Source: Tubulanus polymorphus
Taxonomy: Eukaryota > Animalia > Nemertea
Assembly: GCF_964204645.1 (NCBI RefSeq)
Contig: NC_134025.1
Coordinates: 12,772,001-12,836,000 of the forward strand
Reading direction: 5' to 3'
Length of the DNA stretch: 64,000 nt
Below are positions 5,472 to 57,199 of the stretch, piece after piece; the stretch's first letter is position 1; each line of letters opens with the position of its first letter. Under the pieces are notes generated by a model that saw nothing but the letters and a program-made list of their open reading frames with translations, searched no databases and was not told the origin of the DNA. The translations under genes and the position numbers were made by a program.

Positions 5472-5637
5472 TTTTCAATTAGGATCGGTTATGACATTAA
5501 TTTCTACTGGTGTCATAACATTTTTGAACATCAAGCCTATGGAATATAAATCAGGTAAGAACGAAACAGATGTACTACAACCAAACGTCGAAACAGAAAA
5601 TGAATCAGAACAAAAATTAACTAAAATAAATGAGTGA
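5472..5637 (+). pseudogene. 3' remnant of the 202-aa hypothetical protein (intact at 56137-56745)
   Basis: FQLGSVMTLISTGVI...EQKLTKINE matches the C-terminus of the copy C ORF. Confidence 0.85.
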
Positions 5638-5998
5638 TGGCGTTAAGAAAAAGGCTAGATCAGAGAAACAAATTAAATGGGCAAGAGAATTAGGTAAAAG
5701 ATCTTCAGAATTAAAAAAAGCTAAGAAAAAGAAATTAACTGATATAAATGAATCACAGACTTTATCTGATAATGATTCAAATAATAATCCATCTGATTCT
5801 TCTAATGCTGGAAGTAATTATAAATTATATATTACAATTGGATTAGTAACAGTTATTATATTATCCGGTGTAATATATAAATCAAAATTCAAATCTGATG
5901 ATAAAGATGATTCCAATGACAATAAACCTATCATACCAGAAAATAAGTCAAATCATAAAGTCATTGAAACTAAATCTAAATTATTATTAATGGATTAA
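5630..5998 (+). CDS. Basic protein with one predicted TM helix (viral hypothetical)
   Basis: Lys/Arg-rich N-terminus and hydrophobic LYITIGLVTVIILSGVIY; homologues at 56738 and 44572. Confidence 0.75.
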   Translation: MSDGVKKKARSEKQIKWARELGKRSSELKKAKKKKLTDINESQTLSDNDSNNNPSDSSNAGSNYKLYITIGLVTVIILSGVIYKSKFKSDDKDDSNDNKPIIPENKSNHKVIETKSKLLLMD

Positions 5999-6004
5999 AA
6001 GAAG

Positions 6005-6980
6005 ATGAAAAAAGAACAATATCTGAGAGATTTATATTATAACCCAGAAAGTGAAGTATCATATTCTAACGTTTCAGAATTATGGAATAAAATTAAATCT
6101 GATAATGAAAATGGTGATATAAAATATAGTGAATTAAAATCATGGTTACAAAATCAACCAACATATCAAATCCACAAGAAAATGGATAAAACTTATTTAA
6201 CAAAAAAAGTTATGGTTTCATATATTGATCAACAATGGCAAGCTGATTTAATTGACATGAAGAACTTAGAAAAATACAACAAAGGATATTTCTGGATATT
6301 GAATGTTATAGACATATTCAGTCGATACGCATGGTCAATTCCAATCAAAAATAAAACTGGAATAGAAGTTACAAATGCTTTTAAGAATATATTTAAAGAA
6401 GCTATTGCAGATAAGATACAATTTGATGAAGGTAAGGAATTCTATAACAAACATTTTAAAAAACTATTATCTGATAACGATGTAGAATATTTTTCAACAC
6501 ACTCAGATAAAAAAGCATCTATTATAGAAAGATTTAATAAAACATTGAAATCTAGAATGTGGAAATATAATTCGGAAATAGTTTGGAATAATTTATATGG
6601 AGCGTTTGTTACACATGATTTCGGTGAACCTAGATTCAAAATTGGACAACACGTTAGAATATCTAAATATAGAAAAACCTTTTATAAAGGTTATACCCCT
6701 AATTTTACTGAAGAAATATTTAAAATTTAAAGTACAATATTAACTTAACCTTTTGTTTATAAATTAGAAGATCTAAAAGATGATGAAATATTAGGTTATT
6801 TCTATGAACAAGAATTATCACTTGTACCAAATCCAGATGAAATAGAATACAAAATAGAAAAAGTATTGAAAACAAAAACTCTTAAAGGAAAAAAGTATTC
6901 TTTGGTGAAATATAAAGGATATGATGATAAATTTAATGAATGGATTTTATCTAGTAAAATTAAAAAAATAAATGAATATA
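6005..6980 (+). pseudogene. rve (DDE) integrase with C-terminal chromodomain, disrupted
   Basis: QWQADLIDM, VIDIFSRYAW, QFDEGKEF and IERFNKTLK motifs; 39-codon deletion relative to copy C and a premature stop at 6730. Confidence 0.92.
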
Positions 6981-7583
6981 GATTTATGTATATTTGAACC
7001 GCATAATATGTTAGTTACTGGAGTAACAAACTGTGGTAAAACACATTTCATATTAGATTTGTTAGAAACTATTTATAAGAATCATTTTGATAATATAATA
7101 TTATTCTGCCCTACTTATGAAATGAATAAAACATATAATAGAGATATAGTTAAGATAAAAAAGTTTATTATATTAAATCCTAAAACAGTAAAAGAAAATT
7201 TAGATAATTGTATTAAAATAGCAATTGATACTTATAAAGGATCAAATACATTATTCATTGTAGATGATTGCGCTAATTTACATGATTCAAAAGTGAGAGA
7301 AAGTGAGTTATGTTATTTAGCTTTCTCTGGAAGACATTTTGGGATAACAACATGGGTTTTAAATCAAAAATATAATTCAATTGTTAAAGACTTTAGGGAG
7401 AATATAAGATTTCTAGTTTTATTTTATAACAAAGATAGAAAATCTATGCAACAATCATTGGAAGAAAATCAAATTATACCTACTGAATTACATTATGAAT
7501 ATATGAATAAATTAAAGAATAATAAAGGTTCAAAATTATTACTGAGATTACAATTTCCCTATGAATATAAATTTATAAAATAA
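6972..7583 (+). CDS. A32/FtsK-HerA-type genome packaging ATPase
   Basis: Walker A GVTNCGKT, Walker B FIVDD, downstream GRHFG and Q motif typical of A32-like ATPases; ORF is intact. Confidence 0.9.
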   Translation: MNIDLCIFEPHNMLVTGVTNCGKTHFILDLLETIYKNHFDNIILFCPTYEMNKTYNRDIVKIKKFIILNPKTVKENLDNCIKIAIDTYKGSNTLFIVDDCANLHDSKVRESELCYLAFSGRHFGITTWVLNQKYNSIVKDFRENIRFLVLFYNKDRKSMQQSLEENQIIPTELHYEYMNKLKNNKGSKLLLRLQFPYEYKFIK

Positions 7584-7594
7584 CTATTTGTATA

Positions 7595-7915
7595 CCTATG
7601 TATTAGATACCCTAATACCTGATACCCCATTAGATACCTTAAATACTTAAAACCCCCTTTTTTAAAATAAATATTTTTTATACAATTTTCAACCAATTTA
7701 TTTTTATTTTTTCAACTAATATATGAATAAGTTTGAAAATAATAAAGGTTATTTATTATTACTGAGGTTTCAATATAAATTTAAAAAAGAAATATAATTT
7801 AAGGTATTTTCAAATAATATGTATTAGATATGTATTAGATACCCTATTAGATACCTTAAATACTAAAAACCCCTTTTTTATTTACTATTATTTTATACAA
7901 TTTTCAACTAATATT
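7595..7915. repeat. Duplicated TATTAGATACC...AAAACCCCC-T-run unit between convergent genes
   Basis: Two imperfect units (~7600-7720, ~7820-7915); same arrangement in copy C at ~58935-59270. Confidence 0.65.
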
Positions 7916-7943
7916 ATTATTTGAGTTAAATATAATTAATATC

Positions 7944-8551
7944 TTAATCACTTTCATCATCACTCTCCAATTCACTATCAGACCCTAACAATTTATTCAA
8001 ATTCTCTACCGATATTTCTCCTTCAAATTCTCTATTATTTTTATACTTATTTTTCACCTTTTTTACCGCATCATCAATAGTTGTTTCATTGTTATGCTTA
8101 TTCATCCAATCAAATTTATCATTATTTTCTACTTTATGTTTCATAGAATCTTTATTAGTGTTTGCTCCTAATATTTCATTTACAGTGTTTGATCCTAATA
8201 TTTCATTAGCATCGGTTAGATCTAATTCACTTTATTAGGTGTTGCTAATAATAAATCTTCATATATTTTTTCACCATTTACTTTTTGATTTGAAACAAAC
8301 TTTGTAACATATCTAAATGGGTGTTCTATAAATTCTTTTAAACCAACACGTTCTATAACATTATTTATATGTACCCTTGTATTCATATGTTTATTCCAAT
8401 TTGATGTAGCGTCTATTAGTTTAGTTTTATAAATTTTGAAAATAGGATCAAATATCAAAGCTATATTACAAGGTATTACATAATATAAGCCATCATTATT
8501 TGCATGTGTATCGATGTATGGAATATGTTTATATACTTTACCTCCTTCCAT
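7944..8551 (-). pseudogene. Disrupted homologue of the 263-aa hypothetical protein at 59299-60090
   Basis: Two ORF pieces (8222-8551, 7944-8144) match the N- and C-termini of the copy C protein; internal deletion and frameshift. Confidence 0.85.
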
Positions 8552-8583
8552 TTATTATATAAATTTTTATTAAAGTTAAAATT

Positions 8584-9833
8584 TTAATACATAACACTAT
8601 TTAATTGAGAATTTACAATATTTAATTGCGCGTCAGATATAATATAAATGTGCATTTTGAAATTTTTGATTCCTTTATTCTTTGTCATGAATAATTGTAT
8701 TCCATCTTTAGTGTTTTGTAATTTTATTTTCCAGAACCATGTAATGAATTATCCTCTGTTGTTCTAAAATCTAACCATAATGCATACTTATTACCGGTAT
8801 AATAATCAATTTGATTAATATTACAATTTTCAGATGATTTTACTTTTTCATTCATAAAATGTTTTCTAATTTCTGGCCATTGATCTATCATTCTCATTCC
8901 TTGACAAAATATTTTATTTGCTATTCCTTCGATAGTTATTTCTACTTTTGTTATTTCAGGATTATAATAATTATCAACATTTATTGCGCCATTAGTATAC
9001 GTTGCAATGGTAAAAAATATTAATATACCTTTAATAGATCTTCTTGGGAAGTTAATATTCTCATTAATAATTTCATCATTTGCATTAATAGTTACAGTTT
9101 TAAATTTATCAATATAATCATATAATAATGAAAATCCTTGATTGTATTGAGTTTGAATTATACTTGAAATATTTTCATCAGTTACTGTGTCATATTCTAA
9201 ACATATATTCGATAATTTATAACTCATATGTTTATTAACGCTAGATATTACATTTTCATTTACAGGAGCAAATGTTATTTCGAATATAACGTCTTCTTGA
9301 ATTGCGTATTTATATAAAGGTGCATTGTTATTTATCAATTCAAAGTCTAATGGAATTTTATATTTGCTTCCATATATACTTTTTATCAATTTATCTACAG
9401 CATTAGTTAATATTGCGCTATTAGCTTCTGATCTTAATTTATTTTGGTTTTCTGATTGGATGCCTTGAAATATCATATTATTTCTATTTTCTTTAGTTAA
9501 CCATAAATCTTTATAATGCATAAATAAATTATAATCATCTAATGAGAAAACTGTTTCTGGACCAATCTTTATAGTTAATTTTTTAATCAAATATCTTCCA
9601 ACATTATCAACAACATAATTATTATTATTACCGGTTACTTTTATATCGGCTGATAAATAAATACTATTTGGAACATAAAAAGTATTTTATGTTAATCGAG
9701 GAATTCTAACATATAAAGTTTCATCGGGATTAATATTAGAAGGGTTATGAGTAATTATATGATGTGATCTTTCTGCTTTAATAGCATTAGATATTCTATG
9801 ATTCTTAGAAGGATTGATATAACTCCCACTCAT
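8584..9833 (-). pseudogene. Probable double jelly-roll major capsid protein with premature stops
   Basis: Near-identical to the intact 415-aa ORF at 40625; size, beta-rich pattern and genomic context. The fold is inferred. Confidence 0.7.
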
Positions 9834-9853
9834 TTATTTAACAAAAAAATTAA

Positions 9854-11311
9854 TTATTTATTTTTGATCATGTTTACTAACCCAAAAATAATTGCACTTA
9901 CAACTGTAATTAAAAATAAAATAATATGTTCAGCAGCAAAGTTAATAATGTTTCCTGCAGATTTCAATATAAAACCAACAATTGATGCAATAACTCCTGG
10001 CAATGCTGCAGCAGATTTTTTAGATAGTTCCCATAAATATTTTGCTAATTTCTTTAAACCATCTTTAACTTTATCTTGTATAGAATTATTACCTGGGGGT
10101 TTATCTGGTTTATTTGGAGTAGGAGTAGATTTTAAAGCATTCGATATTGCTAAACCAATTGTTGTAAATAACATAGTTACAGCTGTTAGAATTGAAAGAA
10201 TTGTTATTCCTTCTAACAATAATAATAATTTTATTCTATCTTTCAATGATATTTTAGAATCTGGTTTTATCAACAAATCTTTAAAAATAACTTTTAATCT
10301 ATTAATATTATAATCATATGGTTTTAATAATAATTTAATTTCTTCTTTTTGTAATTCTATGTTATATTCTAAATCATCTTTTTCTTTTTCTAAATACGGA
10401 TTTCTTTTTTTAAATTCGATTTCTTCAATAACTTTATTATCTCTATCTAATTTTAGTTGTTCCGATTCTTTTCTTGATTTAAATAATTCATCTTCTAAAG
10501 TTCTAATTTTTAAATCTCTTATACTTTTATCATGCGCAATTTTATCAGATGCAAGTCTTATACTAATAATTTCTCTAATTGCTTCATCAGAAAATATATT
10601 ATTTAAATCTTCTAATTGTTGATCTGTTGCATCAATTAATCCATTCGGTAAAAGTTTTTCAATTGGAACTTTATTTGATTTAAGTTTACTAGTTTTGGAA
10701 GTTTTATTCTGTTCAGAAGTTGTTTCTGTTTCTGGATTATCATCGATTATTTTAAATAAGTCATCAATTCTTTCACTAAATACTCTTATATTATCATCTC
10801 TTTCTTCTTGTGTAACATCAGTTATTTCATTACTAATACTTATTCTTTTAATTTTATCTGGTTCTAATTTTCTCAAAGTTGATTCCGCTAATATTTTATT
10901 TAGTTTTGTCTTTTGATTAGTGATATCAATATAATAATCATCTTTCAATTTATAATAATATTCACCATCTAAATATTTTAAATCTTCTACTAAAAATCTG
11001 GCACCTCTGTAATTTATATTATATCCAGATCTTTCAAATGCACGTTGGAACTTTTATATAAATTCTTTATTTTCTAAATCTCGACTCGATAAACCTTGAT
11101 TTTCATTTTCAGGACGTATTCTCGATCTAGTTCTTCTATCAAATTCATCTGTTGATGGGGCTTTAGAACCACTATCTGCAAAATTAGAATTATATGCTGA
11201 TTCATTACCATCATCAATATTAGTTTCTGCATCATTATAATCATCATCAATATATCCTTCATTATTATTTCCCATTTCTCCCATTTCATAATCTTCCCCG
11301 CCTTCTGCCAT
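9854..11311 (-). pseudogene. Acidic N-terminus/coiled-coil/multi-TM protein with internal stop
   Basis: ORFs 11054-11311 and 9854-10948 are in frame and match the 483- and 490-aa ORFs of B and C. Confidence 0.85.
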
Positions 11312-11327
11312 TTACATAATAAAAAAA

Positions 11328-12470
11328 TTAAAATTTAAAATATAATATTCCTCCAATTACAATTCCTATACAAGTTATAGCTAATTTAGTATTTTCATGG
11401 GATTTATTATCATCATTTAGTTTATTTATATCATGTTGAATATCACCGTGTGGGTGCCATACGGCACCATTTTCAGTTTTAATATTTTCTGATGTATTGT
11501 AATCTTTTATTTTAGAATCATTATTTAATTTAATATTCTTAGTTTTAGTTTCTGTTGATTGAATGTGTTTTTTATTTTTTTCACCTTCCATTAAGTTTGG
11601 AGCAGTAATTATCTTTTTATTTATATCATTCAATCCAAATGAATTATTTATTGTTGCAGTTTTAATTAGATTATTATAACCAATTATATTTCCCATATTT
11701 AATACTAAATCATTAGAAATAATTAATAGTGATTTAACTACATAATTTTGATATCTTACAATGTTTTCTGGAATCGATCTATTTTTATCATTATGAATAG
11801 AATCTTCAAATAATACTTTGAATTGTTTCTGTGTATCAAATGATGTATTTAAATTTCCAATTATTGGGGATCTTGTTTCAACTTGCGCACCTAAAATACA
11901 TATCAAATAAGTTCTAATAGATTGATTTATTCTTTGTATACCTGATTTTGTAAAACCTTCATTATTTTCTAAAATGAAATAAACCCAACCATTATTGTTT
12001 TCTTGTTTTATATTATCATAAAATGTCGGTAATTTATTGAAATTTAATGTTTCTAAATCCTTAGTTTCTATTTTACCATAACCTAATTTATTACTATAGA
12101 TATTATACAAACTATTAGATGGTATGGGAAGTGCACAATATTCTGCAATCTTTTTAGGGCAAGGAAGTGATCTTATTGTTCCAATTTTTGTTCTAAAATC
12201 AGAATTATTTATATCTATATTAAATTCATCACAAATTTTATAAAACTTTGATAAATTAATATTATTATCTAATTCTTTAAAATACCTACATCCTGGTAAA
12301 GCGCACTCTAATTCATTTAATATTATTCTGATTTGAAAGTATGTATGAAATCTAAATAAACTTTGAATTAATTTATATTTAGAATTATTCAAATGATCAT
12401 TCCAACTAATTCCACATCCTGTCGTTGCGCAATAAACAGCAAAATTTAATTGGTTCTGCCAATACTTCAT
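11328..12470 (-). CDS. Conserved viral hypothetical protein with C-terminal TM anchor
   Basis: QLNFAVYCATTGCGIS motif, C-terminal LAITCIGIVIGGILYF; present in all three copies. Confidence 0.8.
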   Translation of the reverse strand: MKYWQNQLNFAVYCATTGCGISWNDHLNNSKYKLIQSLFRFHTYFQIRIILNELECALPGCRYFKELDNNINLSKFYKICDEFNIDINNSDFRTKIGTIRSLPCPKKIAEYCALPIPSNSLYNIYSNKLGYGKIETKDLETLNFNKLPTFYDNIKQENNNGWVYFILENNEGFTKSGIQRINQSIRTYLICILGAQVETRSPIIGNLNTSFDTQKQFKVLFEDSIHNDKNRSIPENIVRYQNYVVKSLLIISNDLVLNMGNIIGYNNLIKTATINNSFGLNDINKKIITAPNLMEGEKNKKHIQSTETKTKNIKLNNDSKIKDYNTSENIKTENGAVWHPHGDIQHDINKLNDDNKSHENTKLAITCIGIVIGGILYFKF

Positions 12471-12485
12471 ATTAGATTTTAATAA

Positions 12486-12710
12486 CTATTGTTTTTCATC
12501 TTTCAATTTTTTTAAATTAATTAAATATAGATGAAATATATTTTCCATCGTTGCATTAAAATTATTAGTTTCAGTAACATAAATTTCTAAATTAGTTAAT
12601 GAATCTAAAACTTCATTTCTATATGTAATATCTTTATTAAAATCTATTGCTGGAATATTATATTTAATTGATTTATTATATTGGAAAACTTTTGGAAAAC
12701 TATCTACCAT
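12486..12710 (-). CDS. 74-aa viral hypothetical protein
   Basis: T-run/TAAATG start; frameshifted homologue at 37753. Confidence 0.65.
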   Translation of the reverse strand: MVDSFPKVFQYNKSIKYNIPAIDFNKDITYRNEVLDSLTNLEIYVTETNNFNATMENIFHLYLINLKKLKDEKQ

Positions 12711-12726
12711 TTATTTAATTAAAAAA

Positions 12727-13161
12727 TTAATAATTTATTAATTCTTTTAAAAATTTATCTTGTTCTTCAACTGTTATATGACCATTTAAACTTATTATAT
12801 AATCTAGTGTATTCTTCAATTTATTAATTTCTTTTATATTAGTTTTAATTTTTTCTTTATTACTTTTTATATTTAATTTTGAACTTATACCAGTTAAAAC
12901 ACTTGAACTTAATCCTAATACACCAATTGATATAGCTAAAGGTGTTAATGGACTGAATATTGCTAGAAATGTTATTACAGAACTAATTGTAACCGAACCA
13001 CTGATAATAAGATAATATATAATTTTACTTTTTAAATATTTTTTCTTTTTAACTTTTAAGTCACTTTCAAATTTTAATATTTGTTTTTCTAAATATGTTT
13101 TTAATTTAGTTTTATTTATATCATGAGGAATAATATCAATATTATCAACTTTATCTTCCAT
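12727..13161 (-). CDS. 144-aa protein with two predicted TM helices
   Basis: Hydrophobic IIYYLIISGSVTISSVITFLAIF and LAISIGVLGLSSSVLTGI; near-identical to 37302-37736. Confidence 0.8.
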   Translation of the reverse strand: MEDKVDNIDIIPHDINKTKLKTYLEKQILKFESDLKVKKKKYLKSKIIYYLIISGSVTISSVITFLAIFSPLTPLAISIGVLGLSSSVLTGISSKLNIKSNKEKIKTNIKEINKLKNTLDYIISLNGHITVEEQDKFLKELINY

Positions 13162-13180
13162 TTATTTAGCAAAAAAATTA

Positions 13181-13603
13181 CTAATTAGTAAACTTATACG
13201 CCACAAATATAACAATAACTGTTCCACCTAAAATCCAAATTATTTCATATTTCTTCTGTTCATTACTTGGGGTATAATAATCTGATAATTTAGGTTTGTA
13301 TAGATGTAATTTTTCTTTATTTGTTACTGCGTTATATAAACTCATTGCATCATCAACTGATTGAAAATCTCTATGTGAAATCTTCGGATCATATAATTCT
13401 TTATTGATGTAATCCATATAGTTTTGTCGTTTTTCTCTATATTCTTCCGCTGCTTTATTGTATTTCTCTAATGCTAAGTTATGTCTTTTTTGTTGTGTTA
13501 ATGATCCATTTTTATCAATATGTTTAAATAAATAACCGCCACCAGTAAATGCTAAAGCGTTAACAATTGCCGATCCTATAATAGTTATAATTGCAGAAGC
13601 CAT
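13181..13603 (-). CDS. 140-aa protein with hydrophobic N- and C-termini
   Basis: MASAIITIIGSAIVNALAFTGGGYLF and IIWILGGTVIVIFVAY; homologue at 36860. Confidence 0.8.
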   Translation of the reverse strand: MASAIITIIGSAIVNALAFTGGGYLFKHIDKNGSLTQQKRHNLALEKYNKAAEEYREKRQNYMDYINKELYDPKISHRDFQSVDDAMSLYNAVTNKEKLHLYKPKLSDYYTPSNEQKKYEIIWILGGTVIVIFVAYKFTN

Positions 13604-13627
13604 TTATTTAGCAAAAAAATTATGCAT

Positions 13628-13849
13628 TTATATGGGAGGAATATATTTTTGTTTTTCCAAATAATCAATAGTTAAATTAGATAAAGTAACTGCTAATGTT
13701 AATATTAAAATATCATTTATATCAAATCTATCAACATTAACACTTCCCATTTTAAATACTTTTTTTAATACCATTGAATAACCAACAGTTCCAACTGATA
13801 GTAATGCTCCATTATATAATCCAGTTATTATCCACTTATTATCACTCAT
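13628..13849 (-). CDS. 73-aa hydrophobic protein
   Basis: Two hydrophobic stretches; 3' half repeated at 36715-36835. Confidence 0.7.
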   Translation of the reverse strand: MSDNKWIITGLYNGALLSVGTVGYSMVLKKVFKMGSVNVDRFDINDILILTLAVTLSNLTIDYLEKQKYIPPI

Positions 13850-14206
13850 TTATTTATCAAAAAAATTACTATCATCAAAATATTTAGTTAACTTATTTAT
13901 GATTAAATCAACATTTATTTCATTACTAGTTTCATTTGTATATATTTCAATTATTATTTTTTTAATATCATCGATGATAAAATCTTCATCTAATTCATAA
14001 AATCTTAAAGATTCTCTAATTAAATTAGTAATCTTTTCTACATTTAAAGTTTCTTTATCTATTGTTGTTTCATACTCAAATGTTGTTTCTATAGAAAATG
14101 TAATATTTTTGATATGTGTAATTACATCATTAATGTTAAATTTCATTTCTTTCTCATGTTTAAAATCAAACCCAAAACATATACTCGGTCCAACAGTTAT
14201 ATTCAT
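13850..14206 (-). CDS. 118-aa viral hypothetical protein
   Basis: T-run/TAAATG start; its stop codon abuts the next ATG. Confidence 0.65.
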   Translation of the reverse strand: MNITVGPSICFGFDFKHEKEMKFNINDVITHIKNITFSIETTFEYETTIDKETLNVEKITNLIRESLRFYELDEDFIIDDIKKIIIEIYTNETSNEINVDLIINKLTKYFDDSNFFDK

Positions 14207-14222
14207 TTATATAATGAAAAAA

Positions 14223-14978
14223 TTACTCTTTACATCTTATAACTAATTCATATATCACAGGAAAGTTATTCAAATCAATTAAATAACCATTATGATTTCT
14301 TATTTCTAATTTAAAATCATTGAAATGTGGAATACAAGGTTTGAAATCACATTGAGTTAAATTATAATTTATTTGAGTTCCAAATTGTTTAACATTTTTT
14401 AGCGGTAAAATATTTAGTATACTAGAACTACAAATTGTTTCTTTAGTTGCTTCGAAAGTTTTTGTAGGCTCGATTAAATTGCAATAAATATAAAAGTGTG
14501 TAAAAGGTATTATATTTGAGCTGCCTTCTGCGTTTCCAGTAACTGTAAGAGGTTTAATTCCTAACATTTTAGCCAGTGGTTTGTTTACCATAAATTTATG
14601 TTGTTCATTAGATATCTTTATTCTAATTTTATTAGTACTATCAATTTTATTAAATTTAATTTCAAATACACAAGTGCCCCCGATTTTCAACCGAGCTCTT
14701 CTATTAATTTCCTGCGCAAATGATTCTAAATTATATAATCCTGGTTTTAAAAATATATGAAACCATTTATCTTTATTTCTCATATAAATCATAAACCCTC
14801 TATGTTCAAAAGTTTTATCTGATATATTATAAAAATAATTACATAAACTTATATTAACTAATTTTAAATCTACACAATTCTTGAATTCTCTATCTAATTG
14901 TACTAGTAAATTATGAGATTTATAATTTGTAAGACTTCTAGAATCAACAAATATTCTGTATTCTTTTAATTCCGCCAT
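14223..14978 (-). CDS. Probable minor capsid (penton) protein, single jelly-roll
   Basis: 251 aa; N-terminal IFVDSR, PGLYN, FYIYCNLIE and C-terminal LEIRNHNGYLIDLNNFPVIYEL resemble Polinton/virophage minor capsid patterns. Confidence 0.72.
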   Translation of the reverse strand: MAELKEYRIFVDSRSLTNYKSHNLLVQLDREFKNCVDLKLVNISLCNYFYNISDKTFEHRGFMIYMRNKDKWFHIFLKPGLYNLESFAQEINRRARLKIGGTCVFEIKFNKIDSTNKIRIKISNEQHKFMVNKPLAKMLGIKPLTVTGNAEGSSNIIPFTHFYIYCNLIEPTKTFEATKETICSSSILNILPLKNVKQFGTQINYNLTQCDFKPCIPHFNDFKLEIRNHNGYLIDLNNFPVIYELVIRCKE

Positions 14979-14995
14979 TTATTTTACATATTTTC

Positions 14996-15348
14996 TTATT
15001 CGAAATCTATTTCATGGTGCCCTTTTTCATTCTTACCTTTGTATATGAAATAGAAATCTCCAGAACATAATTCTTCTAAATCTTCACTTGATAATCTATG
15101 AAATCTATCCGGTAAATATGTTCTGAATTTATACGTATTTCCTTTTAATCCTTCATATTCTAAGTGTATAACTAATTTATCTCCATAGTTATTAGTAACT
15201 GTAACAATATCTGTAATTAGATATTTCTTATGGATTGTCAATTCTGTTAATTTTTGAATTTATAATCTACAGATTTTACATTTTTGATATCTTTAATTCT
15301 ATCTAGAAATAATTTGTTGTTCTCACTGTGCGCTTGTTTACTCTCCAT
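14996..15348 (-). pseudogene. Small Polinton-associated protein, frameshifted; homologue of 44896-45222
   Basis: YGDKL...YLPDRF...LSSEDL...IYKGKNEKGHHEI aligns with YGEKV...FLPDKW...LSTEEL...IYHGKNEDGHHDL. Confidence 0.7.
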
Positions 15349-15377
15349 TTTAATAACATATTTTTATTAAAATTTGA

Positions 15378-18300
15378 TTAACACGTTAGAATTCTTTTCA
15401 TTATCTCGTTCTCTTTTGTTTCTTCTCTTTTAAATTTTAAGTATTCATCTAAATTACAACCATAAGCAACTGTATGAATTCCATCATCTAAAATATATCT
15501 TTTATCATCAAATGGGTTTAGACTTATCTTTTCAATTTCTTCAATAAACATTTCATGATCTTCAGATCTTAAACATCTCATCTTATGTTTTCTAACTTCT
15601 TCATTGAATATACAATTGATGTAATCTTTGAAATGAATATTCTTTTCTACTACACTTTTGGTTATTCCTTTTAACTTTTTAGCTTCATGTTCTTTAGTTT
15701 TATATGAATACATTTTAGATCTAATACCTATGAACTCTATCATTTCTTCACCACCTAATTCATCCTTAAACTTCCCTGGAACTTTTTTATTATCATTGCT
15801 AAACAATTCATGATCTTTAGGATAATTACCGAAATCAAAATGATGTTTTAATGTTTTTAAATCATCATGTTATCAGTTTTTATCTTTAATATGTAACTGT
15901 CGGTATCGAAATATAATATTTCTATATGTTTTTCTCCAAAAAGTGGTTGTAATACATTATAATAGAATTCATACATCAGTAATTTTGATAATTCTAAAAC
16001 TGAAGCACCAACATAGATTGGTTTATTAAATTTCATTGATGTTCTTCTCATTTTAACTGCAGCTAAATTTTCATCGAATATTCTGTTACCTATAAATTTA
16101 GGATATGATTGTAAATGCCTTATCCTTTTGCCATTACTTACTAACTCAATATCATTTCTATTTCTAATATTTTCACAAGTCTTACCATAGAATGCATTAT
16201 TCATTAACTTGAAGAAATCTTTCTCGAAATCAGTTTTAGCTTCAGTTCTCTGTTTGGTGTTAAAATCTATATATTTTTCTAACCACTTAGATTGGCTGAA
16301 TGAAATATATCTATGTACTTTTTTTAGAACTATTCCTTGATTCAAATAAAACTTAACATTCTATAATGTACTACATAATTATATTTATCTTCTTGAGTTA
16401 CCATTAACTTTTTTGTATGAATATGATTTTCAGGTTTAATTCTTTTTTGGTAATTTGATAATTCTTCATGAGTTACATTTTTATGTTCGGGACAGTATGC
16501 TAGATTTCTAGATTTAAATTTAATATGTTCAGGATATTCTAAATCTACAACAAAAAAGTAACCAGTATCTGAATCATCTGCAATATCTATAATTCTTTTC
16601 TTCCAATCAAATTTATCATTATTTTCATTCTGTAAAACTTCACTTATTTCAAATACTCCATAAGGTTGTGGTTCCATCATTGCCCAACCATAAAATTATT
16701 TGCATCTATATATAATAACTTATATCCAGGGTTATCATTTACCGGTACTCGAAAAACGCCTAATGAAATACACCGAATCGGAAAACGCATAACGCCTAAT
16801 TCCTAGAAAATGACCTAATTTCGTAATTGCAAAATCTACTGAGACTCACAATCCAACTCATCAACGGAACAGTTTGAAAATACATGTCTTTTACGCTTCA
16901 CGAAACGAGACTACTACTCTTATAAACTTCATTATAGGATGATGATAGAATTTCCGCAGTGCAAGCAATTAATTAAATAACGCCATAGAAGTGTAAACTG
17001 AAACAGTTTACACTTCTATGATAACGCGAAAACAAACGCCGCGGTTATAAACCGGCTTTCTTGAATTTTGAAACCGGAATGCATAAATATGGTACAACCT
17101 ACGCTCGTAGGTACAACGCACACAAAGATTGATAAAATAGCCTTTCTCAAAATTATCCTCCAAAACTGTTCACAACCACGCTAATGTGAACCTACCGAAC
17201 CAATGAGAGACTAAATAATGTCCAGCCCCTGAACTTCCTTGAACAAAAAATTATAAACTATATGTTCGATATTAAAAATATGATGTCTTTTATTATCATA
17301 ATACTCCGTCTTGATATGAAATAATAACACAGATAAGCCTGTGTAACCAAATACAGTAGAAACGAAGATGGAACAGGCGGCGCTCCACGCACTCCGACGT
17401 GAACTATGTAGCGTTGCGTACATAGTTCACGTAGGGATTTAGGTCAATTTCTTGGATGTTACTTGAATTAGGCGTTATGCGTTTTCCGATTCGGTGTTTT
17501 TCATTAGGCGTTTTTCGAATACCGTATCATTTACATCGAAATATCTATCACCTAATACACCTGAAACTCCTCCTCTTATTGATTTTTCAAATAATAGTAA
17601 TTGATCTATATTTTTTAACAAATCCATTTTAATATCTGTAAATTTTAATCCACAATCCCATGTTAATCCTGGTGATGAATAACAATGACAAGGATCAATA
17701 TTAAAATATTTTAGGTTTACATCTCTAAACCTTTCGAATATATTGGTTAATAATAATACATCTGATTTTAAATATAAATCTACTAATTGCCCATGATTTT
17801 CTATTTTGAAGTGATTCCAAATATTCAATGTTCTATTATATACTTCATCTTTAACATATTCATTTTTTAATTCATCATAGAATTGTTCTTACAATAATTC
17901 AGTTATGTTAAAATCATTATGATTCTTATAGAAAGAATATGGAATTGCTCCTTTATATCTCATTAATTTAAAATCATCATTATTTGGGTAATATTCTTTT
18001 AATATCTTTAATTCATCATCAACTAATGATTTTGATAAGTTATCTAATGAACTATTTAAAAATCTATATGAATGTATAAATCTTAAACACCCAAATTGGA
18101 ATGATATATAATTCTCAGATGTTTTAGCTAACATTCTAAATTTATAAGTTGGTATTTTATCTTTTGATCTATTTGAATTTAATCTTTCTATTTCATTATT
18201 AATTTCTTCTATTTTATGGCATAACTGTTTGATGAATAAATGTGCATCATATCCTGATAGATTATGAAATATAACTGGTACAAAATTAATTTTCTTAGCT

Positions 18301-20203
18301 TGTAAGTTACAATTCTCATGTGCGGCGCCTCTAAACTTTCCGTTCAAATGATCATGGTCTCTTACTTTTTTATCTTTATAATTAAATATCTTTTCACAAT
18401 AATAACATTTATCTGCAAACCCAAATGCTTCTTTATCTTCTTCTGTCATTATAATTTCTATATTTGTATTCAATAATTTACTAAATCTTATTTCATATTC
18501 AATTAATAAGTCACAAAAATGATTGATAACATTTTCATTTCTATAATCATAATATTCACTTTCAATTAGTTCTGGATAATCAGATTTTATATATAACCCG
18601 AAAGCAGCAGCTGATTGATGAATCTTTTTAATAGTATTTGTTTTTGGTGGTTCTTCAGAATAATCATTTTCATTAGAATTTAATTTCTTTCTCTTATAAT
18701 ATATTTCTTTTCTATCTTGATCAGTTAGTTCTTTATTTAATGAATCAAAATCTCCATATATTACCAATGGTACTTTATTTTTGTAATCATATTTTTTGAA
18801 TTCTAATATTTTATCCATTTCATTTGGTAAAACTAATTTACAATAATCATGATTTTCACATAATTGTTTATGATTTAATAATGTACTTTCATTACTGAAT
18901 TTATGTAAACATTTTCTACAAAGATATATTTTATGGTGATCATTTTCTGATTTAAAAAATAAATCGATTTGTTTAATCCACATATAATGATTCTCATAAT
19001 ATAGTATATCTATAACATCGTTTGAATCATAATCTTTTGATAGATATAAAGGTTCTAATGTATAATGTTTTATATTGTTACCTTTTGTATTTGGTAATTT
19101 GATTAAATCAAATACATTTATTCTTAAATTATTATCTCTTTCTATTTTTGGGATGTTTTTAATTATAACAGGATACTTATCTATATTATAATTATTTTCA
19201 AATTGTTTATAATTTGTTAATCTATAAGTATGTTTTTATAATCTTCAACTGGGTGTAAACAACTTATTATAGCCCATAGAAAACATTTATCATCTTCATT
19301 TTGTATATTTATAACAGCATTAGTTTTAAATGGTAATTTGATATAACTCGATGCTTCAATATCTGGTTCTTTATAATATGATACATTATTTTCATCTATT
19401 GGTTTCGATTTAGTTAACTTATTATATTTTGTGTTATAAACATGTAAAGTCATAAATATTATTTCATCAAATATTAAACCAGATCCTTCAAAATATTTCT
19501 CTTCTATTTTAGTTTTTACTTCATTATAACATTTATCTAATTTATCATTTATATGTTGTTTATATATAACATGTTGTGAATGAGAATTTATATTATATAT
19601 TGGTTTATCTTCAGATTTTATAAACTTTACTTTAACTGATATACTAATTTTAGGATATTCAACATCAGTTATTATTTTTATTATTTCTTTCATATTTTCT
19701 AAATGTTTTTTATTTTCTTCTAATGTTTTACCTTTATGAAATTTAAACTCGATAGCTGCTGGACCAATATCACTTTTAAATGCTTCGGTTATCTCTATAT
19801 CTTTTTTATTATGTAATGAATTAATATTATTTCTTACATCTTCCATGTATGGTCTTTTATTGTTTAATTTATTTTTTATGCTTTTAATTGTCTTCTGTTT
19901 CTTATCATTATCTTTATCAAAATAATCTTCACCTAAAATATCATTATTCTTATTTCTAATATGACTTTTAGATTTTAAATGTTCATTATAATATCTTTTA
20001 TCACTGAATGATTGATTACATGTATCACATTTGTATGTTTCTTTTTCATTCTTTAATTCATCTAATTTAGATTCTAATATATCATCTTTATATTCTAGTT
20101 TCAATTTATTCTCTAAATGTGTTTTAGTTTTATTGTGTCTTGCTTTTTGGGATTTATCTATATTGATATTACATGTTGGGCAGTAGTACTTATTTGCTTC
20201 CAT
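15378..20203 (-). pseudogene. polB: Protein-primed family B DNA polymerase with N-terminal C2H2 fingers, OTU-like region and EndoVII-like insert; fragmented
   Basis: YGDFDS, FHNLSGYD, LYLKSDV, KLMNNAFYGK, YFDTDS and GKFKDE motifs across six ORF pieces; NEDDKCFLWAI; CYYC...RDHDHLNGKFRG...CN. Confidence 0.95.
16743..17524. mobile_element. Non-autonomous TIR element (Mutator-like MITE) inserted in polB
   Basis: ~60-bp TIR CGGTA(C/T)TCGAAAAACGCCTAATGAAA...; 10-bp TSD TATCATTTAC at 16733-16742 and 17525-17534. Confidence 0.9.
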
Positions 20204-20408
20204 TTTAATACTAAATTTTTTATTAAAATTGATTTTAGAAGTTCAATGATTTATATTTGCATTATTTCAATCACACTTTACTAACACTTTTAATGTTTAA
20301 AAATCTAACTCACACAAATATGAATATTGAAATAATGTTGTAAATATATACTTTTATATTGAATTATCTGTCAATTTAAATGTTATTCATCTATATGATT
20401 ATTTTAAG

Positions 20409-20821
20409 AGTAATAGGGGTAATGGGCTTTCAGGTTAAAGGTTGAATGGTCGAGCTCATTAAAAAACAAAACATTAAAAGTAATTTAAAACTATAATATA
20501 TTTTCATAACCGTGTGTATTTCAGTTGAATAATAGAATTATAATTATTATTAAAATATATTTGATTATATGAATTTGTGTATTGTAAATAAATCAATTGG
20601 TCGCGGAGTGGAGCGGTAGCGAAGTGGAGCGACCAATTGATTTAATACAATATGCTTTTTAAATTTAAATTATTGATATCTTAGAATAAATATTTAGTTA
20701 TAATATAAAATACACACGGTTTTGAAAATATATTATAGTTTTAAATTACTTTTAATGTTTTGTTTTTTTAATGAGCTCGACCCTTCGACCTTTGGCCTTA
20801 AAGCCCATTACCCCTATTACT
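20409..20821. repeat. 413-bp imperfect palindrome at the right terminus of copy A
   Basis: AGTAATAGGGGTAATGGGCTTT...AAAGCCCATTACCCCTATTACT; inner stem AAATCAATTGGTCGC/GCGACCAATTGATTT around a purine-rich loop. Confidence 0.92.
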
Positions 20822-21974
20822 AATCAACGATATGAATTATACGACGGAGCGTCAAATAGTTAACGACGAGCGTTGTCGTTAATCAACGACTGCGCGCCAA
20901 ATTCGAAATGTCGTTGACGCGAACTCGAAGAGTCGAAATTCAGAGGCGACGTCAAGGAGATGAAACGGCCGCGTGTTCGTTCGAAAAAGGAGTTACTGAA
21001 TACAGGCGATTTTCATGGTCAGCAGAAATGACATCTCGAAGTAAGATTACGGAAAAATAGCACAGAAGATATACTATACTATTACTATTACTATTAGTAA
21101 TTACAGCGACGAGAGCGTTAAGATGGCATCGTCAAAGGATTGAATTTAAACAGACGATAAATTGACAATATTTACAAGATTGTAAGTGACGAGTTTATCG
21201 GCAGCCCATGGCCGACGACTACACGGCCCCCGGGTGCGTCGGCACCCGGGACTCACTGAGGGCGGGATGTCAAAAATCACTGCAGCAATCCCGGGGTCAG
21301 ACGACCCGGAGGCCCGTGTCTTAAATAGAAAGTAAAATTGTCTCCTTACATGATCTGTATGATTTACAGCGTCCGATTCCTAAAACGGTGAAGAAGCAGC
21401 AAGAAAGAGTTTCTAATGGGGCTCTGCCAGAGCCAAGTTGCCAATGAGCGCGATTGCGCTAAATTAATAGTTTTCATGCGGTCAACGCATGCGGTGATTG
21501 GTCAAGCGAGACGAGCAGTAATAAAGTAGAGCACGCAAAATCATTCGACCGTGACGAATGATAAAACCCTAAATAAAGACTTCATACGCGAGAAATAGAA
21601 TTAAGTTCTATAATATTTTAAGATTAACGCGAAAAATGACGACTATAAGACCGATACGGAGATATTTACTACAAAATAAACCGGAGTCAACCGCACCACC
21701 GAGAAAACGCTCACACGGAAGTGAGGCGGCGCCAGCGAACGGCGTCGTAAAAACGAGCGTAAACACGAGCAGGGCTGGAGAATTCATAGGTAGGTGGAGA
21801 ATAAAAGAATGGCCTGGACAGGCGCCGAAAAATCGCTAATATCACTGCGATGTGGCGTGGCCAACACCGCGGGGGCCTGCCCAGGTCGTAAAATTGGAAT
21901 CTGACAGAACTGCCAAAAATCTGTCAGATTGAAATTGAGCCGAAAAGATCCCGAAACATCGCCGCAGAACACTC

Positions 21975-33406: not shown

Positions 33407-33497
33407 TATATTAGTAATAGGAAAAGTGGGGTTTCAGATCAGAGGACGAGAGGACGAGACACCACTCATCACCACAAGTAATTCTTTTTCCTAATAA

Positions 33498-35334
33498 ATG
33501 GGGGAGAATGAACACCAGACAGAAAACAATAATGTTAATAAAAATCAATATTATTGCACATATTGTAAAAAATACATCGATATATCTAATAAAACACGAC
33601 ATGAAAAAACTGCAAATCATATAAAAAATGTAATAGATTTTGAAACTCCAGAAAATTCCAATGAAAGAAAAGAAAGATTAGAAAATATGAATGTGGATGA
33701 AATAAAATGTGAAGTTTGTAATGAATTTATAGTAAAAAGGAATTATAATAGACATCTCGAATCACAAAAACACCACCGAAATTTGAGTAATAATGTTTTA
33801 GGAAAAGTTAATTTCGATGATAAACTTCAAAAAGTAAAAAAAACCAAGTTCAAAAACTAAATCCATTTCAAATAAACCTTACATGGAAAATGTTAGAAAT
33901 TATATTGATTCACTAGAAATAAAAGATACAATTGAAATTTTAGAAACATTACATAGTAAAATTGGTCCTGCGGCTATTATATTTAGATTCTTTAAAGGTA
34001 CAACAATAGAAGATTATAGTAAATTTAATGAAATAATAGAAAAAATACTAGATTTGATAACAGATGTTGAATATCCAAAAATTAGTATCTCTGGGAAAGT
34101 AAGTTTTATAAAGTCAGAAGAAAAAATGAATTATAATATTCAAACACTCTCTGAAGAAATAATTTCAAAAACACAAATAAAAGAGAAGTTAGAAAAAATA
34201 TTAAATGAATTTAAACGTCATATTGAAGAAAGATATTTTGAGGGTTCTGGCTTAACATTGAATGAAATTATATATTTAGATTTAAATGTTTACAATACAA
34301 AAAGAAATAAAACATCAAAAAGTAAAACAATGTTTAAAAATGATTCAAACTTTACAACAGAAAAGGATATTAAAGCATCATCTTATATTAAATTATCATT
34401 TACGACAAAAGCAGTAATAAATATTCAAAATGAAGATAATAAATGTTTTCTATGGTCAATTATTAGTTGCTTACATCCAACACAGGAAAATGTTTGTAGA
34501 ATAACAGATTATCGGAAATATGAAACATTATATAAAATTGATCAATATCCAGTAACTATAAAAATGATACCCAAAATAGAAAAAATTAATAAGTTAAAAA
34601 TAAATGTATTCGAATTAATGCAATTACCAAAGACAAAAGGTGAAAATATTAAAGATTATACATTGGAAGCTTTATATTTAACAGAATATTATGATGATGA
34701 AAATGCTATAGATTTGTTATATTACAAAAAAGATGAAAATGAACATTATATGTGGTTAAAACAAATTGATTTATTCTTTAGAACAGAAAGTGATCATCAT
34801 CATAAAATTTATCTATGTAGAAAATGTTTATCTAAATTTATGACTGAGAATACATTATTAAAACATAAAGAATTATGTGATAATAAAGATTTTTGTAAAT
34901 TAATAATGCCAACAGAAAAAGATTATAAATTGAAATTTACTAACCATAAATCTAAGAATATTGTTCCATTTGTAATTTATGGGGATTTTGAATCGTTGAA
35001 TAAAGAATTAACCGATCAAGATAGAAAAGAAATATATAACAAAAAGCAATTATAAAAATCAATGGATAAAGGAAATGAATTAAATGAAGACACAACACAA
35101 GACCCACCAATTATAAATACAATTAAAAAAGTTCATCAAAGAGCTGCTGCTTATGGAATTTATATAAAATCAAATTATCCCGAATTATATGAATGTCAAT
35201 ATATTTCTTTTAGAGGTGAAGATGTAGTTAATGATTTTTGTAACAAAATGATTGAATTAGAAAGTGATTTTGCAAAATTATTAAACAAAAATAAAAGAAT
35301 AGTTATGACAAAAGAAGATGAACACGATAGGTAG
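33498..35334 (+). pseudogene. polB: N-terminal part of pPolB (zinc fingers, OTU-like region, exonuclease I motif), truncated
   Basis: YYCTYC...HEKTANH, CEVC...HLESQKH, NEDNKCFLWSI and YGDFES; clearly homologous to but diverged from copy A polB. Confidence 0.9.
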
Positions 35335-36714
35335 AACACAATATCCGTGTTGACGCGATGAGGAGAGAATCCCACAATGATAATAAAAAGTCCGAAAATG
35401 AAATTTCGAGATAGTAGTTTATTTCAACGTTTCGACTATATCCTAATAGTCATCTTCAGGAATAATGAGATACTACAGAAATTATGAGATATATATACAA
35501 TCCAGAGACAAAGAGACTAATTCAAGTAATCAGAGATGATACAAACTAAAGGAAAATTAACGTAGAAACAGTTACACGCTAAAATAGATTAAAGGGAAGC
35601 AAACTAAGGGGTGATTATAAACAACAATAGTGAGTATAAATATAAATGAAACTTAAAGTCAGTAGTAAAAAGAAAGACAAACTGGGGGGCACTTAAATTA
35701 AAACATAGGTGAATACAAGTCAAGCTCTCCCCGTTATCCATTTCCTGAAAATATATGAGTAACAATAGCTTGTAAATTGGAGGATCCCGATGAAAGGAAC
35801 ATTGTATCGAAGGCTTAGGCAAGCTATAAATATTCTTTTTTCAAACTATTAACGTGACATCTCAAATTTAATTTAGTAGAATGATTAGTGAAAATCACAC
35901 GATTGAACATATTATTCTACCCATACACGTTGAATGAAGTACTTAATCATGATAAATTGACGATATAATAAAATTTTATTTAATTGGATTGGTTTAAATC
36001 TAGTGACAGGAGAACGTTCAAAATTTCGTCGATAAAATCGGCGGAAGATATCGTAATGTAGCATGATCAACTTACTCTCTGATTAATTAATAAACAAGGC
36101 ACATTGCTTACTTACGATTAAAAATGCAGATCCTTGACCAAGAAGTTAGAGCCGCTACGATAAGAGTGAAACGCAAATGAAATGGCGCGGTAGGTCCGGC
36201 GCCGTACACAACACATAAAGTGGACGCACTGAGGATCGCGTGAAACCGATATCGAGTAAGCCCATTGCAAATCGATTGATTTTCAAAATTTTTCAAGTAT
36301 CGTCACTAATAGTTAAATGCGATAATTTAACGCTATTTTCATTTAAATACGCAATCTCCGCGAAGTAGTCGCGTGTTTGATTTAGGTAAATATAGACTAC
36401 TTGGTACTGGGGTTTTTCCCATCAGACTCGCGCCGTTAGATAGGAAAAATCAATACGATGCTAGTGCTGTATGTATATAATATGCATTTCACAAACTTTG
36501 ACGCTGATTTCAGATAGACAATCAATTTTCTTTATGTACGGCAGGGATACTATAAATGAGCGCTTTTACGGCTCAGGACGCTTTTTACGGTCCAGTATCG
36601 CCTGTCGATCTTCACTCACGAAATTTCCGGAATTTTTCCACCGGCAAACGGAATGCGAATATTGGTTCGAAAATACGTAACGATTCCGGATAAATCGGAA
36701 GGGTTGGAGGGTCT
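35331..36714. mobile_element. Foreign DNA replacing the polB-to-73-aa-ORF interval of copy B; left part looks Penelope-like
   Basis: Abrupt loss of homology to copy A at ~35331, return at GGGAAGTGTTAATG (~36715); higher GC; hammerhead-like motif. Confidence 0.6.
35413..35478 (-). ncRNA. Minimal, atypical hammerhead-ribozyme-like motif of the Penelope type
   Basis: Minus strand: CTGAAGA-T-GACTAT-TAGGAT-ATAGTC-GAAA-CGTTG, with flanking TTATT/AATAA and GTAGT/ACTAC pairing. Confidence 0.55.
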
Positions 36715-36859
36715 GGGAAGTGTTAATGTTGATAGATTTGATATAAATGATATTTTAAAGTTAACATTAGCAATTACTTTATCTAATTTAACTATTGATT
36801 ATTTGGAAAAACAAAAATATATTCCTCCCTTATAAATGCGTAATTATTTTACTAAATAA

Positions 36860-37282: not shown

Positions 37283-37301
37283 TAATTTTTTTTCTAAATA
37301 A

Positions 37302-37736: not shown

Positions 37737-37752
37737 TTTTTTAATTATATAA

Positions 37753-37980: not shown

Positions 37981-37981
37981 T

Positions 37982-39130: not shown

Positions 39131-39148
39131 ATTTTTTTTATTATATAA

Positions 39149-40600: not shown

Positions 40601-40624
40601 ATAATTAATTTTTTTGTTAAATAA

Positions 40625-41872: not shown

Positions 41873-41902
41873 AAATATAAAGTTAAAATTAAGGATATAT
41901 AA

Positions 41903-44005: not shown

Positions 44006-44033
44006 CATCACAACTAATTTTTTTGTTATATAA

Positions 44034-57193: not shown

Positions 57194-57199
57194 AATAAG

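What the first reader, a model, noticed from the sequence alone, without database searches (positions are those of the whole stretch)
20409..20821. Element termini are long fold-backs with conserved outer arms and unrelated but still self-complementary interiors
Seen: the right end of A is a 413-bp palindrome and the left end of C (53563-53831) a 269-bp palindrome. Both are bounded by AGTAATAGGG.TAATGGGCTTT and its reverse complement, share ~55 bp of outer arm and adjoin the same internal sequence (CTTAAAATA...polB start). The interiors differ in sequence and length yet each pairs with itself. Each end therefore carries two inverted copies of the AGT terminal signal. Established: Polintons have TIRs beginning AG(T) and replicate by protein priming. 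Inference: structure rather than sequence is maintained here, as a hairpin telomere, origin or end-to-end junction of the extrachromosomal form. Copy B has no such fold-back.
Basis: partly seen in the sequence, partly recalled or inferred. Interest (0 to 1): 0.78.

Follow-up and report, generated by a model that had tools for sequence, protein, structure and literature searches.

The report
Polinton ends fold on one strand
A family of virus-like Polinton elements in an animal genome ends in 270-410-base imperfect palindromes whose mismatches suit folding of one particular strand, so each end likely folds back on itself while the element's DNA is single-stranded and would then rebuild a replication start site locally.

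Summary
Real, and not an assembly artefact. Both palindromes (413 and 269 bp; z -30 and -22) sit at the exact ends of Polinton/Maverick copies. In reads from another study, over 1,300 reads leave each outer end into diverse flanks, while about 2,000-fold depth runs through the inner boundary into the element, so most are not free MITEs. Correction: A shows the polymerase end and C the opposite end (its 'polB start' is only the TIR copy), so the unrelated interiors may be left versus right rather than copy versus copy. New here: all 16 transition mismatches between arms are G.T, none A.C, on the strand whose 3' end lies at that terminus. Arms covary, and some length variants are symmetric. Flipped interiors are a minority, unlike AAV flip/flop. 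Best reading (0.45): a 3'-strand fold-back that regenerates the origin during protein-primed replication; self-priming, RNA hairpin and strand-biased relic remain open. TSDs of A and C were untestable. Prior art: 52-nt terminal palindromes in protist virophages/PLVs, mostly lacking pPolB (2026 preprint); this scan also noted a 196-nt fold-back in a polymerase-less Maverick of another genome.

The parts
20409..20821 (.). Terminal palindrome of copy A (polymerase-proximal, right end); inner arm 20409-20605, purine-rich loop 20606-20631, outer arm 20632-20821; the + strand carries the 3' terminus and the G.T wobbles
   Evidence: 1323 reads with diverse loose ends behind 20821
20090..20408 (.). 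Inner part of A's right TIR, shared with C's left end except 125 bp (about 20249-20373); includes the first ~114 nt of the polB frame
   Evidence: 98% over 167 bp to 53859-54025; read depth about doubles over 20100-20250
15378..20203 (-). Broken protein-primed family B polymerase gene of A (several frames, an insertion at 16743-17524), with zinc fingers and an endonuclease VII-like domain
   Evidence: first frame 67% identical to the N terminus of a 1365-aa natural relative
5473..20821 (+). Polinton copy A; left end truncated; integrase 6005-6730, packaging ATPase 6972-7583
20822..20880 (+). Host flank of A: one unit of a 59-bp tandem repeat
   Evidence: 537 reads show the joint 20879->20821 'goes back 59'
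53563..53831 (.). Terminal palindrome of copy C (polymerase-distal, left end); outer arm 53563-53688, loop 53689-53705, inner arm 53706-53831; each arm holds a 20-bp direct repeat 59 bp apart; the - strand carries the 3' terminus and the G.T wobbles
   Evidence: 1392 reads with diverse loose ends before 53563
53832..54025 (.). Inner part of C's left TIR (copy of the polB start)
   Evidence: 725 reads leave here into polB-type sequence
53563..64000 (+). Polinton copy C, runs off the window; 90-95% identical to A over the shared body; integrase with chromodomain 57398-58312
33413..45600 (.). Polinton copy B: related 47-bp terminal signal, simple TIRs, no fold-back, 6-bp TSD on both sides (natural control)

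Best explanation
The palindromes are built-in ends of a pPolB-encoding Polinton family, and each likely folds back on the strand that carries the 3' terminus, which would rebuild a double-stranded origin at that end when protein-primed replication displaces a single strand. Shown: position at the element end, the link to the element body, covarying arms, strand-polar wobbles, few flips. Inferred: after strand displacement the 3' end pairs with the inner AGT copy 270-410 nt away instead of finding the far TIR about 15-20 kb away. The terminal-protein/polymerase then initiates on the paired end, displaces the inner arm and copies the strand, which keeps arm polarity. Only the first ~52 bp (binding sites for polymerase, terminal protein and integrase, related to B's simple end) need a fixed sequence. 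The rest is a spacer stem that can change length and sequence if pairing is kept, with occasional copying of one arm from the other. Integrase uses the outer AGT/ACT.
For: Outer ends leave into diverse flanks (1323 and 1392 reads, agreement 0.34); the inner boundary is crossed at depth 2036 and 2141. Transition mismatches on the 3'-terminal strand are 16 G.T to 0 A.C (13-16 to 0-1 across six scoring schemes; two-sided p about 1e-4 counting the two shared sites once), while four other inverted repeats of the window are mixed, 8 G.T to 11 A.C. That strand folds better as DNA: -131.6 vs -125.2 (A), -106.7 vs -93.5 (C). Arms covary between A and C at 3 columns; 2 inner/outer differences are shared by both. 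Symmetric short variants at arm positions 63/63 (30 reads) and 66/66 (49 reads). Arm-swap reads are 52 and 49 against depth 1250-1560. The family encodes pPolB. The panhandle model for displaced strands is established but lacks direct evidence (PMC11886824, passages).
Against: No function was tested and no extrachromosomal DNA was seen. B has the related terminal signal and integrated without a fold-back, so it is not needed in close relatives. G.T polarity is equally what strand-biased C-to-T deamination or an RNA stem would give; the transversion test that could separate these is weak (G.A 6 vs C.T 5; 6 vs 2 after dropping three sites private to these copies, p 0.14-0.29). A paired 3' end is also a ready primer, so self-priming must be suppressed or resolved. 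No such terminal fold-back was found in 30 viral-contig relatives, though few have visible ends. The read tables were truncated (e.g. 15 of 124 joints, 40 of 59 letter rows).
Confidence: 0.45

Rival explanations
1. Hairpin self-priming: the folded 3' end primes DNA synthesis directly, as in parvoviruses, giving hairpin-closed or head-to-head dimer intermediates that integrase or the polymerase's endonuclease VII-like domain resolve asymmetrically at the AGT/ACT signal.
For: The 3' end pairs in exact register with the inner AGT and leaves the internal strand as template (sequence). The polarity points to the same strand. The layout, palindrome plus an inner shared TIR, resembles the AAV ITR with its D sequence (PMC11575299, passages). 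The same model is proposed for virophage/PLV palindromes (10.64898/2026.07.28.741278, section 7). Endonuclease VII-like domain in polB.
Against: AAV-type resolution gives flip and flop; here swaps are a minority and would scramble the G.T polarity. No HUH Rep among the element frames scanned. The endonuclease domain is common in relatives (PF02945 on many rows), so it is not tied to these ends. An asymmetric precedent (MVM left end) is recalled only; search found no paper.
Confidence: 0.2
2. Relic or composite end: one old template switch, or a mini-Polinton module (AGT...ACT), duplicated the terminal signal in inverted form. It is inherited with the element, homogenised now and then by arm-to-arm conversion, and its polarity comes from C-to-T loss on a transiently single strand, not from selection.
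For: Each palindrome is formally a complete AGT...ACT mini-element. All 16 transitions read as C-to-T (or A-to-G) on one strand. B does without it. 384 reads show diverse loose ends at A's inner boundary, and summed loop depth (about 1400 + 1800) exceeds inner-junction depth (about 2100), so some free or differently attached palindromes may exist.
Against: No TSD flanks either palindrome. At most about a fifth could be free: 384 loose reads against depth 2036, some of them outer ends placed on the look-alike inner arm. Two unrelated interiors and several length classes all stay paired. Simple strand displacement leaves the 5' end single-stranded longest, the opposite polarity (inference).
Confidence: 0.2
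3. RNA hairpin: outward transcription from a divergent promoter near the polB start runs through the palindrome and gives a long G.U-containing RNA stem that regulates the element or triggers or decoys host small-RNA silencing.
For: The 3'-terminal strand is the sense of an outward transcript; the RNA fold gap between strands is larger (-205 vs -186 for A; -166 vs -138 for C); G.U polarity is the usual mark of RNA stems (established knowledge).
Against: No RNA run held the stretch (0 of 4 holders on record as RNA; the search was for DNA). An RNA role does not need the stem to end exactly at the terminal base or to keep a second intact end signal.
Confidence: 0.12
4. Assembly artefact, or a junction of two element ends from a circular or tandem form.
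For: Long palindromes can arise in assembly or library preparation (established knowledge); about 100 arm-swap reads could be library chimeras.
Against: Reads from a different study cover both loops and arms at depth above 1000. Arms differ in a patterned way. An end-to-end join puts the termini in the middle, not at the edges.
Confidence: 0.03

Closest known systems
Terminal palindromes of endogenous virophages (subtypes 1, 2, 5, 6) and PLV subtype 4 of Halocafeteria seosinensis (bioRxiv 10.64898/2026.07.28.741278; passages and section 7 read)
   Same: Palindromes inside the TIRs next to the TSD of integrase-bearing polinton-like elements; hairpin priming proposed, untested.
   Different: There 52 nt in the subtype drawn, in a protist, and preferentially in elements with non-pPolB replication genes. 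Here 269-413 bp, in a pPolB-encoding animal-type Polinton, with two unrelated interiors, length classes and strand-polar wobbles (none of these appears in the parts read).
Polinton/Maverick TIRs (PMC8097293, passages)
   Same: AGT-type end motif, TIR, 6-bp TSD (seen in B), integrase, ATPase, pPolB.
   Different: The passages describe simple TIRs of 46-1447 bp; here the end signal is present twice per end, inverted, and the motif is AGTAAT rather than (AGT)2.
Panhandle origin of adenovirus/PRD1 (PMC11886824, passages)
   Same: A displaced strand re-forms a duplex origin for protein priming, and pairing restores homology between the partners.
   Different: There the two genome ends pair with each other; here each end can pair with itself.
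AAV/parvovirus ITR (PMC11575299, passages) and poxvirus hairpin telomeres (PMC8956199, abstract and outline only)
   Same: Terminal imperfect palindrome; in vaccinia structure rather than sequence matters and mismatches are kept.
   Different: Both have flip and flop isomers; here arm polarity is mostly fixed, no Rep is encoded, and the element integrates with an rve integrase.
Streptomyces telomeres (PMC4513846, passages)
   Same: Terminal-protein-primed ends whose 3' single strand folds back through palindromes.
   Different: Several short hairpins in a 3' overhang left by internal-origin replication, patched by Tap/Tpg; here one long stem and a phi29-type polymerase.

Membership tests
Polinton/Maverick | Protein-primed family B polymerase | tested here: met
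   Broken frames 15378-20203; PHROG DNA polymerase E 0.0014; homologues carry PF03175; N terminus 67% identical to a 1365-aa relative
Polinton/Maverick | rve integrase | tested here: met
   PF00665 above cut-off in A and C
Polinton/Maverick | A32-like packaging ATPase | tested here: met
   PF04665 in A and B
Polinton/Maverick | Major capsid protein and maturation protease | tested here: inconclusive
   40625-41872 has 928 mostly unnamed homologues but no Pfam or PHROG label; 'capsid' is my recalled label. No protease hit among 38 frames
Polinton/Maverick | TIRs starting with AG | tested here: met
   B directly; A right and C left ends are inverted copies; doubled read depth over the shared part
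Polinton/Maverick | 6-bp target site duplication | tested here: inconclusive
   Met for B; A and C each lack one end in the window
MITE (free mini-Polinton) | Own TSD on both sides | tested here: not met
   Flanks of each palindrome differ; the inner flank is the same element sequence in both
MITE (free mini-Polinton) | Mostly dispersed independently of full elements | tested here: not met
   Inner boundary crossed at depth 2036 and 2141; 384 diverse loose ends at 20409; none at 53831 among the 6 of 288 loose-end rows shown. A minority cannot be excluded
Parvovirus-type rolling-hairpin end | HUH Rep nickase in the element | tested here: not met
   None among the element frames; the Rep-like hit at 30959-31351 is a host Helitron
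Parvovirus-type rolling-hairpin end | Flip and flop isomers in equal amounts | tested here: not met
   52 and 49 arm-swap reads against depth 1250-1560; fixed G.T polarity
Covalently closed hairpin telomere | Closed ends on the free genome | not testable with these tools
   Only integrated copies and sheared short reads were available

The most novel reading that the evidence does not exclude
A protein-primed Polinton lineage has replaced the end-to-end panhandle by a self-folding origin at each end, with different left and right stems held by pairing on the 3'-terminal strand alone. This would be a hybrid of adenovirus-type protein priming and parvovirus-type terminal fold-back, with copy B as a close natural control.
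Probability: 0.35. Interest if true: 0.8.

Novelty: new variant of a known kind. Interest (0 to 1): 0.6.

Why it matters
How Polintons replicate outside the chromosome has been modelled but not shown, and the panhandle intermediate itself lacks direct evidence. Strand-polar mismatches in a terminal stem are a sequence record that one named strand was single-stranded or folded. A high-copy family with folded ends beside a close relative with simple ends lets the question be tested from genomes alone. It also extends terminal palindromes from mostly pPolB-less protist elements to a pPolB-encoding animal element.

Tried and rejected
No host genome is held, so copies could not be collected or phased. 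Terminal-motif scans of viral contigs found 0 stretches. The prokaryote genome scan gave 6 single matches, about what chance gives for 19 letters (my estimate), with no extended similarity. Relative searches with the window's polB frame gave 0 loci in viral and metagenome contigs; the capsid-like alignment gave 0 in viral contigs and 23 metagenome loci without recognisable ends; a full-length relative gave 0 viral loci and 0 phage records. The polymerase alignment gave 30 viral-contig loci; none shows an AGT-bounded terminal fold-back, but few include an end and short-read assemblies collapse palindromes. A short inner copy of B's end motif does not fold above chance. A shared loop motif between A and C looked plausible by eye (both loops G-rich on the 3'-terminal strand) but was not significant (95 of 300 shuffles). 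The interiors match nothing else in the window beyond short AT-rich hits. Depth ratios cannot separate left/right from subfamily. Look-ups of earlier findings by sequence, by place and by a second word set returned nothing.

Full report
Observation. As single-stranded DNA they fold to -131.6 and -93.5 kcal/mol, z -29.6 and -22.1, with no shuffle as good. A's arms match at 161 of 203 columns, nearly perfectly over the first 114 positions and loosely near the loop; C's match at 113 of 126 without gaps. Beyond about position 56 the two interiors are no more alike than shuffles. The signal occurs at the four palindrome edges and, slightly changed, at both ends of B (7 matches, 0.77 expected).

Context. 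The window holds three copies of a Polinton/Maverick: integrase (A, C), A32-type ATPase (A, B) and a broken protein-primed polymerase with zinc fingers and an endonuclease VII-like domain. Named homologues come from a bivalve, a crinoid, anthozoans and a beetle, so the host is probably an invertebrate animal (inference). A runs from a truncated left edge near 5473 to 20821, with polB starting at 20203 and reading inward. C starts at 53563 in the same orientation and runs off the window; it is 90-95% identical to A over the shared body. C's match to A's end stops at 54025, so it is the left TIR's copy of the polB start and lacks 125 bp of A. A therefore shows the polymerase end and C the opposite end. 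B (33413-45600) has a 6-bp duplication on both sides and simple TIRs, whose first 47 bases match C's arm at 36, and it does not fold. B's two TIRs also differ from each other just inside the end, by about 270 extra bases at the polymerase-distal side.

Reads. No host genome is held. The run search listed 5 runs of one organism: four contig sets from one study and one raw Illumina run, X5, from another, added by species label. I laid X5, X1, X2 and X3 on A's end and X5 alone on C's end; the counts below are X5. At the outer ends, 1323 reads (behind 20821) and 1392 reads (before 53563) continue into sequence with 0.34 agreement, meaning many insertion sites. Ten to twenty bases inside the inner boundary depth is 2036 (20399) and 2141 (53849). 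Diverse loose ends at A's inner boundary number 384; some will be outer ends placed on the look-alike inner arm, so free palindromes are at most about a fifth. At C's inner boundary no pile is among the 6 of 288 rows shown (the sixth has 487 reads). Depth is 1040-1130 on polB-only sequence (19951-20050), 1680-1850 on the shared TIR, about 1400 on A's loop, 1040-1150 on C's inner arm and 700-770 on left-end-specific sequence. C-type interiors appear as loose ends on A's arms and A-type ones on C's. Roughly equal amounts of the two types fit one type per end, but two equally common subfamilies fit too; I put left/right at about 0.65. Against a tidy picture: C's loop depth (1740-1860) exceeds its arms, summed loop depth exceeds inner-junction depth, and 561 reads carry a different first 19 bases, so further end classes exist. 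The loops are covered at depth above 1000 in an independent library, which rules out an assembly artefact.

Pairing is maintained. In the first 56 columns of the four window arms, 3 differences are shared by both arms of one copy and 2 are shared by both inner arms; 11 are other patterns. Of 31 read differences checked place by place, four arm positions had both partners listed, and in 3 of the 4 the two read letters pair (unphased). Seven listed differences restore a pair that the window copy lacks, four of them in 89-99% of reads; 16 others have no listed partner and cannot be judged, since the tables show only 40 of 255 and 40 of 59 rows. Of the 15 of 124 joints shown for C, six skip the loop from arm to arm. 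Two are exactly symmetric, at arm positions 63/63 (30 reads) and 66/66 (49 reads), with a short loop-like insert between. Four land at inner position 102, with other letters between where shown, so their symmetry cannot be read. A 12-read class joins positions 47 and 42. Two joints (44 reads) from near the loop to inner position 10 are uninterpretable. Because each C arm holds a direct repeat 59 bp apart, the symmetric short form differs from C by one unit in both arms with the loop kept. That needs arm-to-arm copying or selection (inference).

Strand polarity. Reading the strand whose 3' end lies at the terminus (+ for A, - for C), all 9 transition mismatches in A and all 7 in C are G.T and none is A.C. 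Across six scoring schemes and up to 200 co-optimal alignments each, the totals are 13-16 to 0-1; counting the two shared sites once, two-sided p is about 1e-4. Four other inverted repeats in the window give 8 G.T and 11 A.C. That strand folds better as DNA by 6 and 13 kcal/mol and as RNA by 19 and 28. Decay after integration is strand-symmetric, so the bias arose while one strand was single, folded or transcribed (inference). It does not separate selection from deamination: every case can be read as C-to-T on that strand, and the transversion test is weak (G.A 6, C.T 5; 6 and 2 after dropping three sites private to these copies). Inverting an interior would turn G.T into A.C, so flips are rare in these lineages. 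Reads agree: 52 and 49 reads swap arms at mirrored positions, against depth 1250-1560. Allowing that only about a third of reads could show it, that is roughly a tenth of ends, or library chimeras.

Mechanism. In protein-primed replication the displaced strand is thought to regain a duplex origin by pairing its two TIRs, a model without direct evidence (PMC11886824, passages). Here the 3' end can pair in register with an inner copy of the signal a few hundred bases away. Using A's right and C's left end as a stand-in for one element, the two local folds (-225) plus the inner TIR duplex (-175) outweigh the end-to-end duplex (-269) (rough). I take local origin regeneration as most likely (0.45): it explains exact terminal register, a conserved 52-bp cap, a free stem, strand polarity and few flips. 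Self-priming with asymmetric resolution (0.2), an inherited relic with strand-biased mutation (0.2) and an RNA stem (0.12) remain. A junction of two ends is excluded by polarity of the signals. B shows that close kin manage without.

Known relatives. A 2026 preprint reports palindromes inside TIRs next to TSDs in Halocafeteria virophages and one PLV subtype, 52 nt in the subtype drawn, mostly with non-pPolB replication genes, and proposes hairpin priming (10.64898/2026.07.28.741278; passages and section 7; its supplements were not seen and may list longer or pPolB-linked cases). For vertebrate Mavericks the passages read give TIRs of 46-1447 bp, (AGT)2 or (AG)3 ends and 6-bp TSDs, with no fold-back mentioned in them (PMC8097293). 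Searches for Polinton or Maverick with palindrome or hairpin terms (listings, plus passages of PMC11296320, 10.1101/2022.07.28.501842 and 10.1101/2024.03.18.585575) showed no pPolB-encoding animal case. The original Polinton papers did not appear in these listings and Repbase entries could not be searched, so absence from print is not established. Analogies: AAV ITRs (PMC11575299, passages), vaccinia hairpins (PMC8956199, abstract), Streptomyces telomeres (PMC4513846, passages).

Verdict. A real, family-wide end structure; a new variant of a recently reported kind, with a strand-polarity signal that makes the replication model testable. Function is untested. Interest 0.6.

Noticed in passing
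window 32893-33412 and 45601-45781: B sits in a 63-bp minisatellite beside Helitron genes (Pif1 helicase 28715-30841, Rep 30959-31351, DUF6570 32140-32574), with a clean 6-bp duplication.
   Followed up: partly
window 41903-43632 vs 6005-7583: In B the integrase-ATPase block is inverted relative to the capsid-like and polB blocks compared with A and C. B is a mosaic: about 90% to A in the middle block, 68-81% in integrase/ATPase, 72% in the polB start. Metagenome relatives show both orders (L007 like B; L008, L009, L011 like A).
   Followed up: partly
L053 4657-4840: A distant relative (integrase, ATPase, polB with endonuclease VII domain) has a 184-bp branched palindrome about 140 bp upstream of polB, with genes on both sides and (ACT)2/(AGT)2 motifs facing outward; possibly an end junction or internal origin.
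   Followed up: partly
window 53563-53582: 561 reads share C's arm from position 20 but carry a different first 19 bases: another end class in the genome.
   Followed up: no
window 55402-55857 and 54014-54134: C carries an endonuclease VII/HNH-like frame (PHROG E 0.00027) whose last ~120 bp are duplicated right behind the left TIR.
   Followed up: no
window 16743-17524: An insertion with 60-bp inverted ends (97%) interrupts A's polymerase gene.
   Followed up: no
window 20822-20880: A's right flank is one unit of a 59-bp tandem repeat that is abundant elsewhere in the genome.
   Followed up: partly
window 43629-44012: Array of 11-bp, partly self-complementary repeats between the ATPase and the next gene in B; relatives have AT-rich palindromes behind the ATPase (L007 9155-9359, L011 3183-3255).
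   Followed up: no
window 1611-4330: 31-bp satellite (65 copies) with larger 396-429-bp units, ending in a host inverted repeat with mixed mismatch polarity.
   Followed up: no
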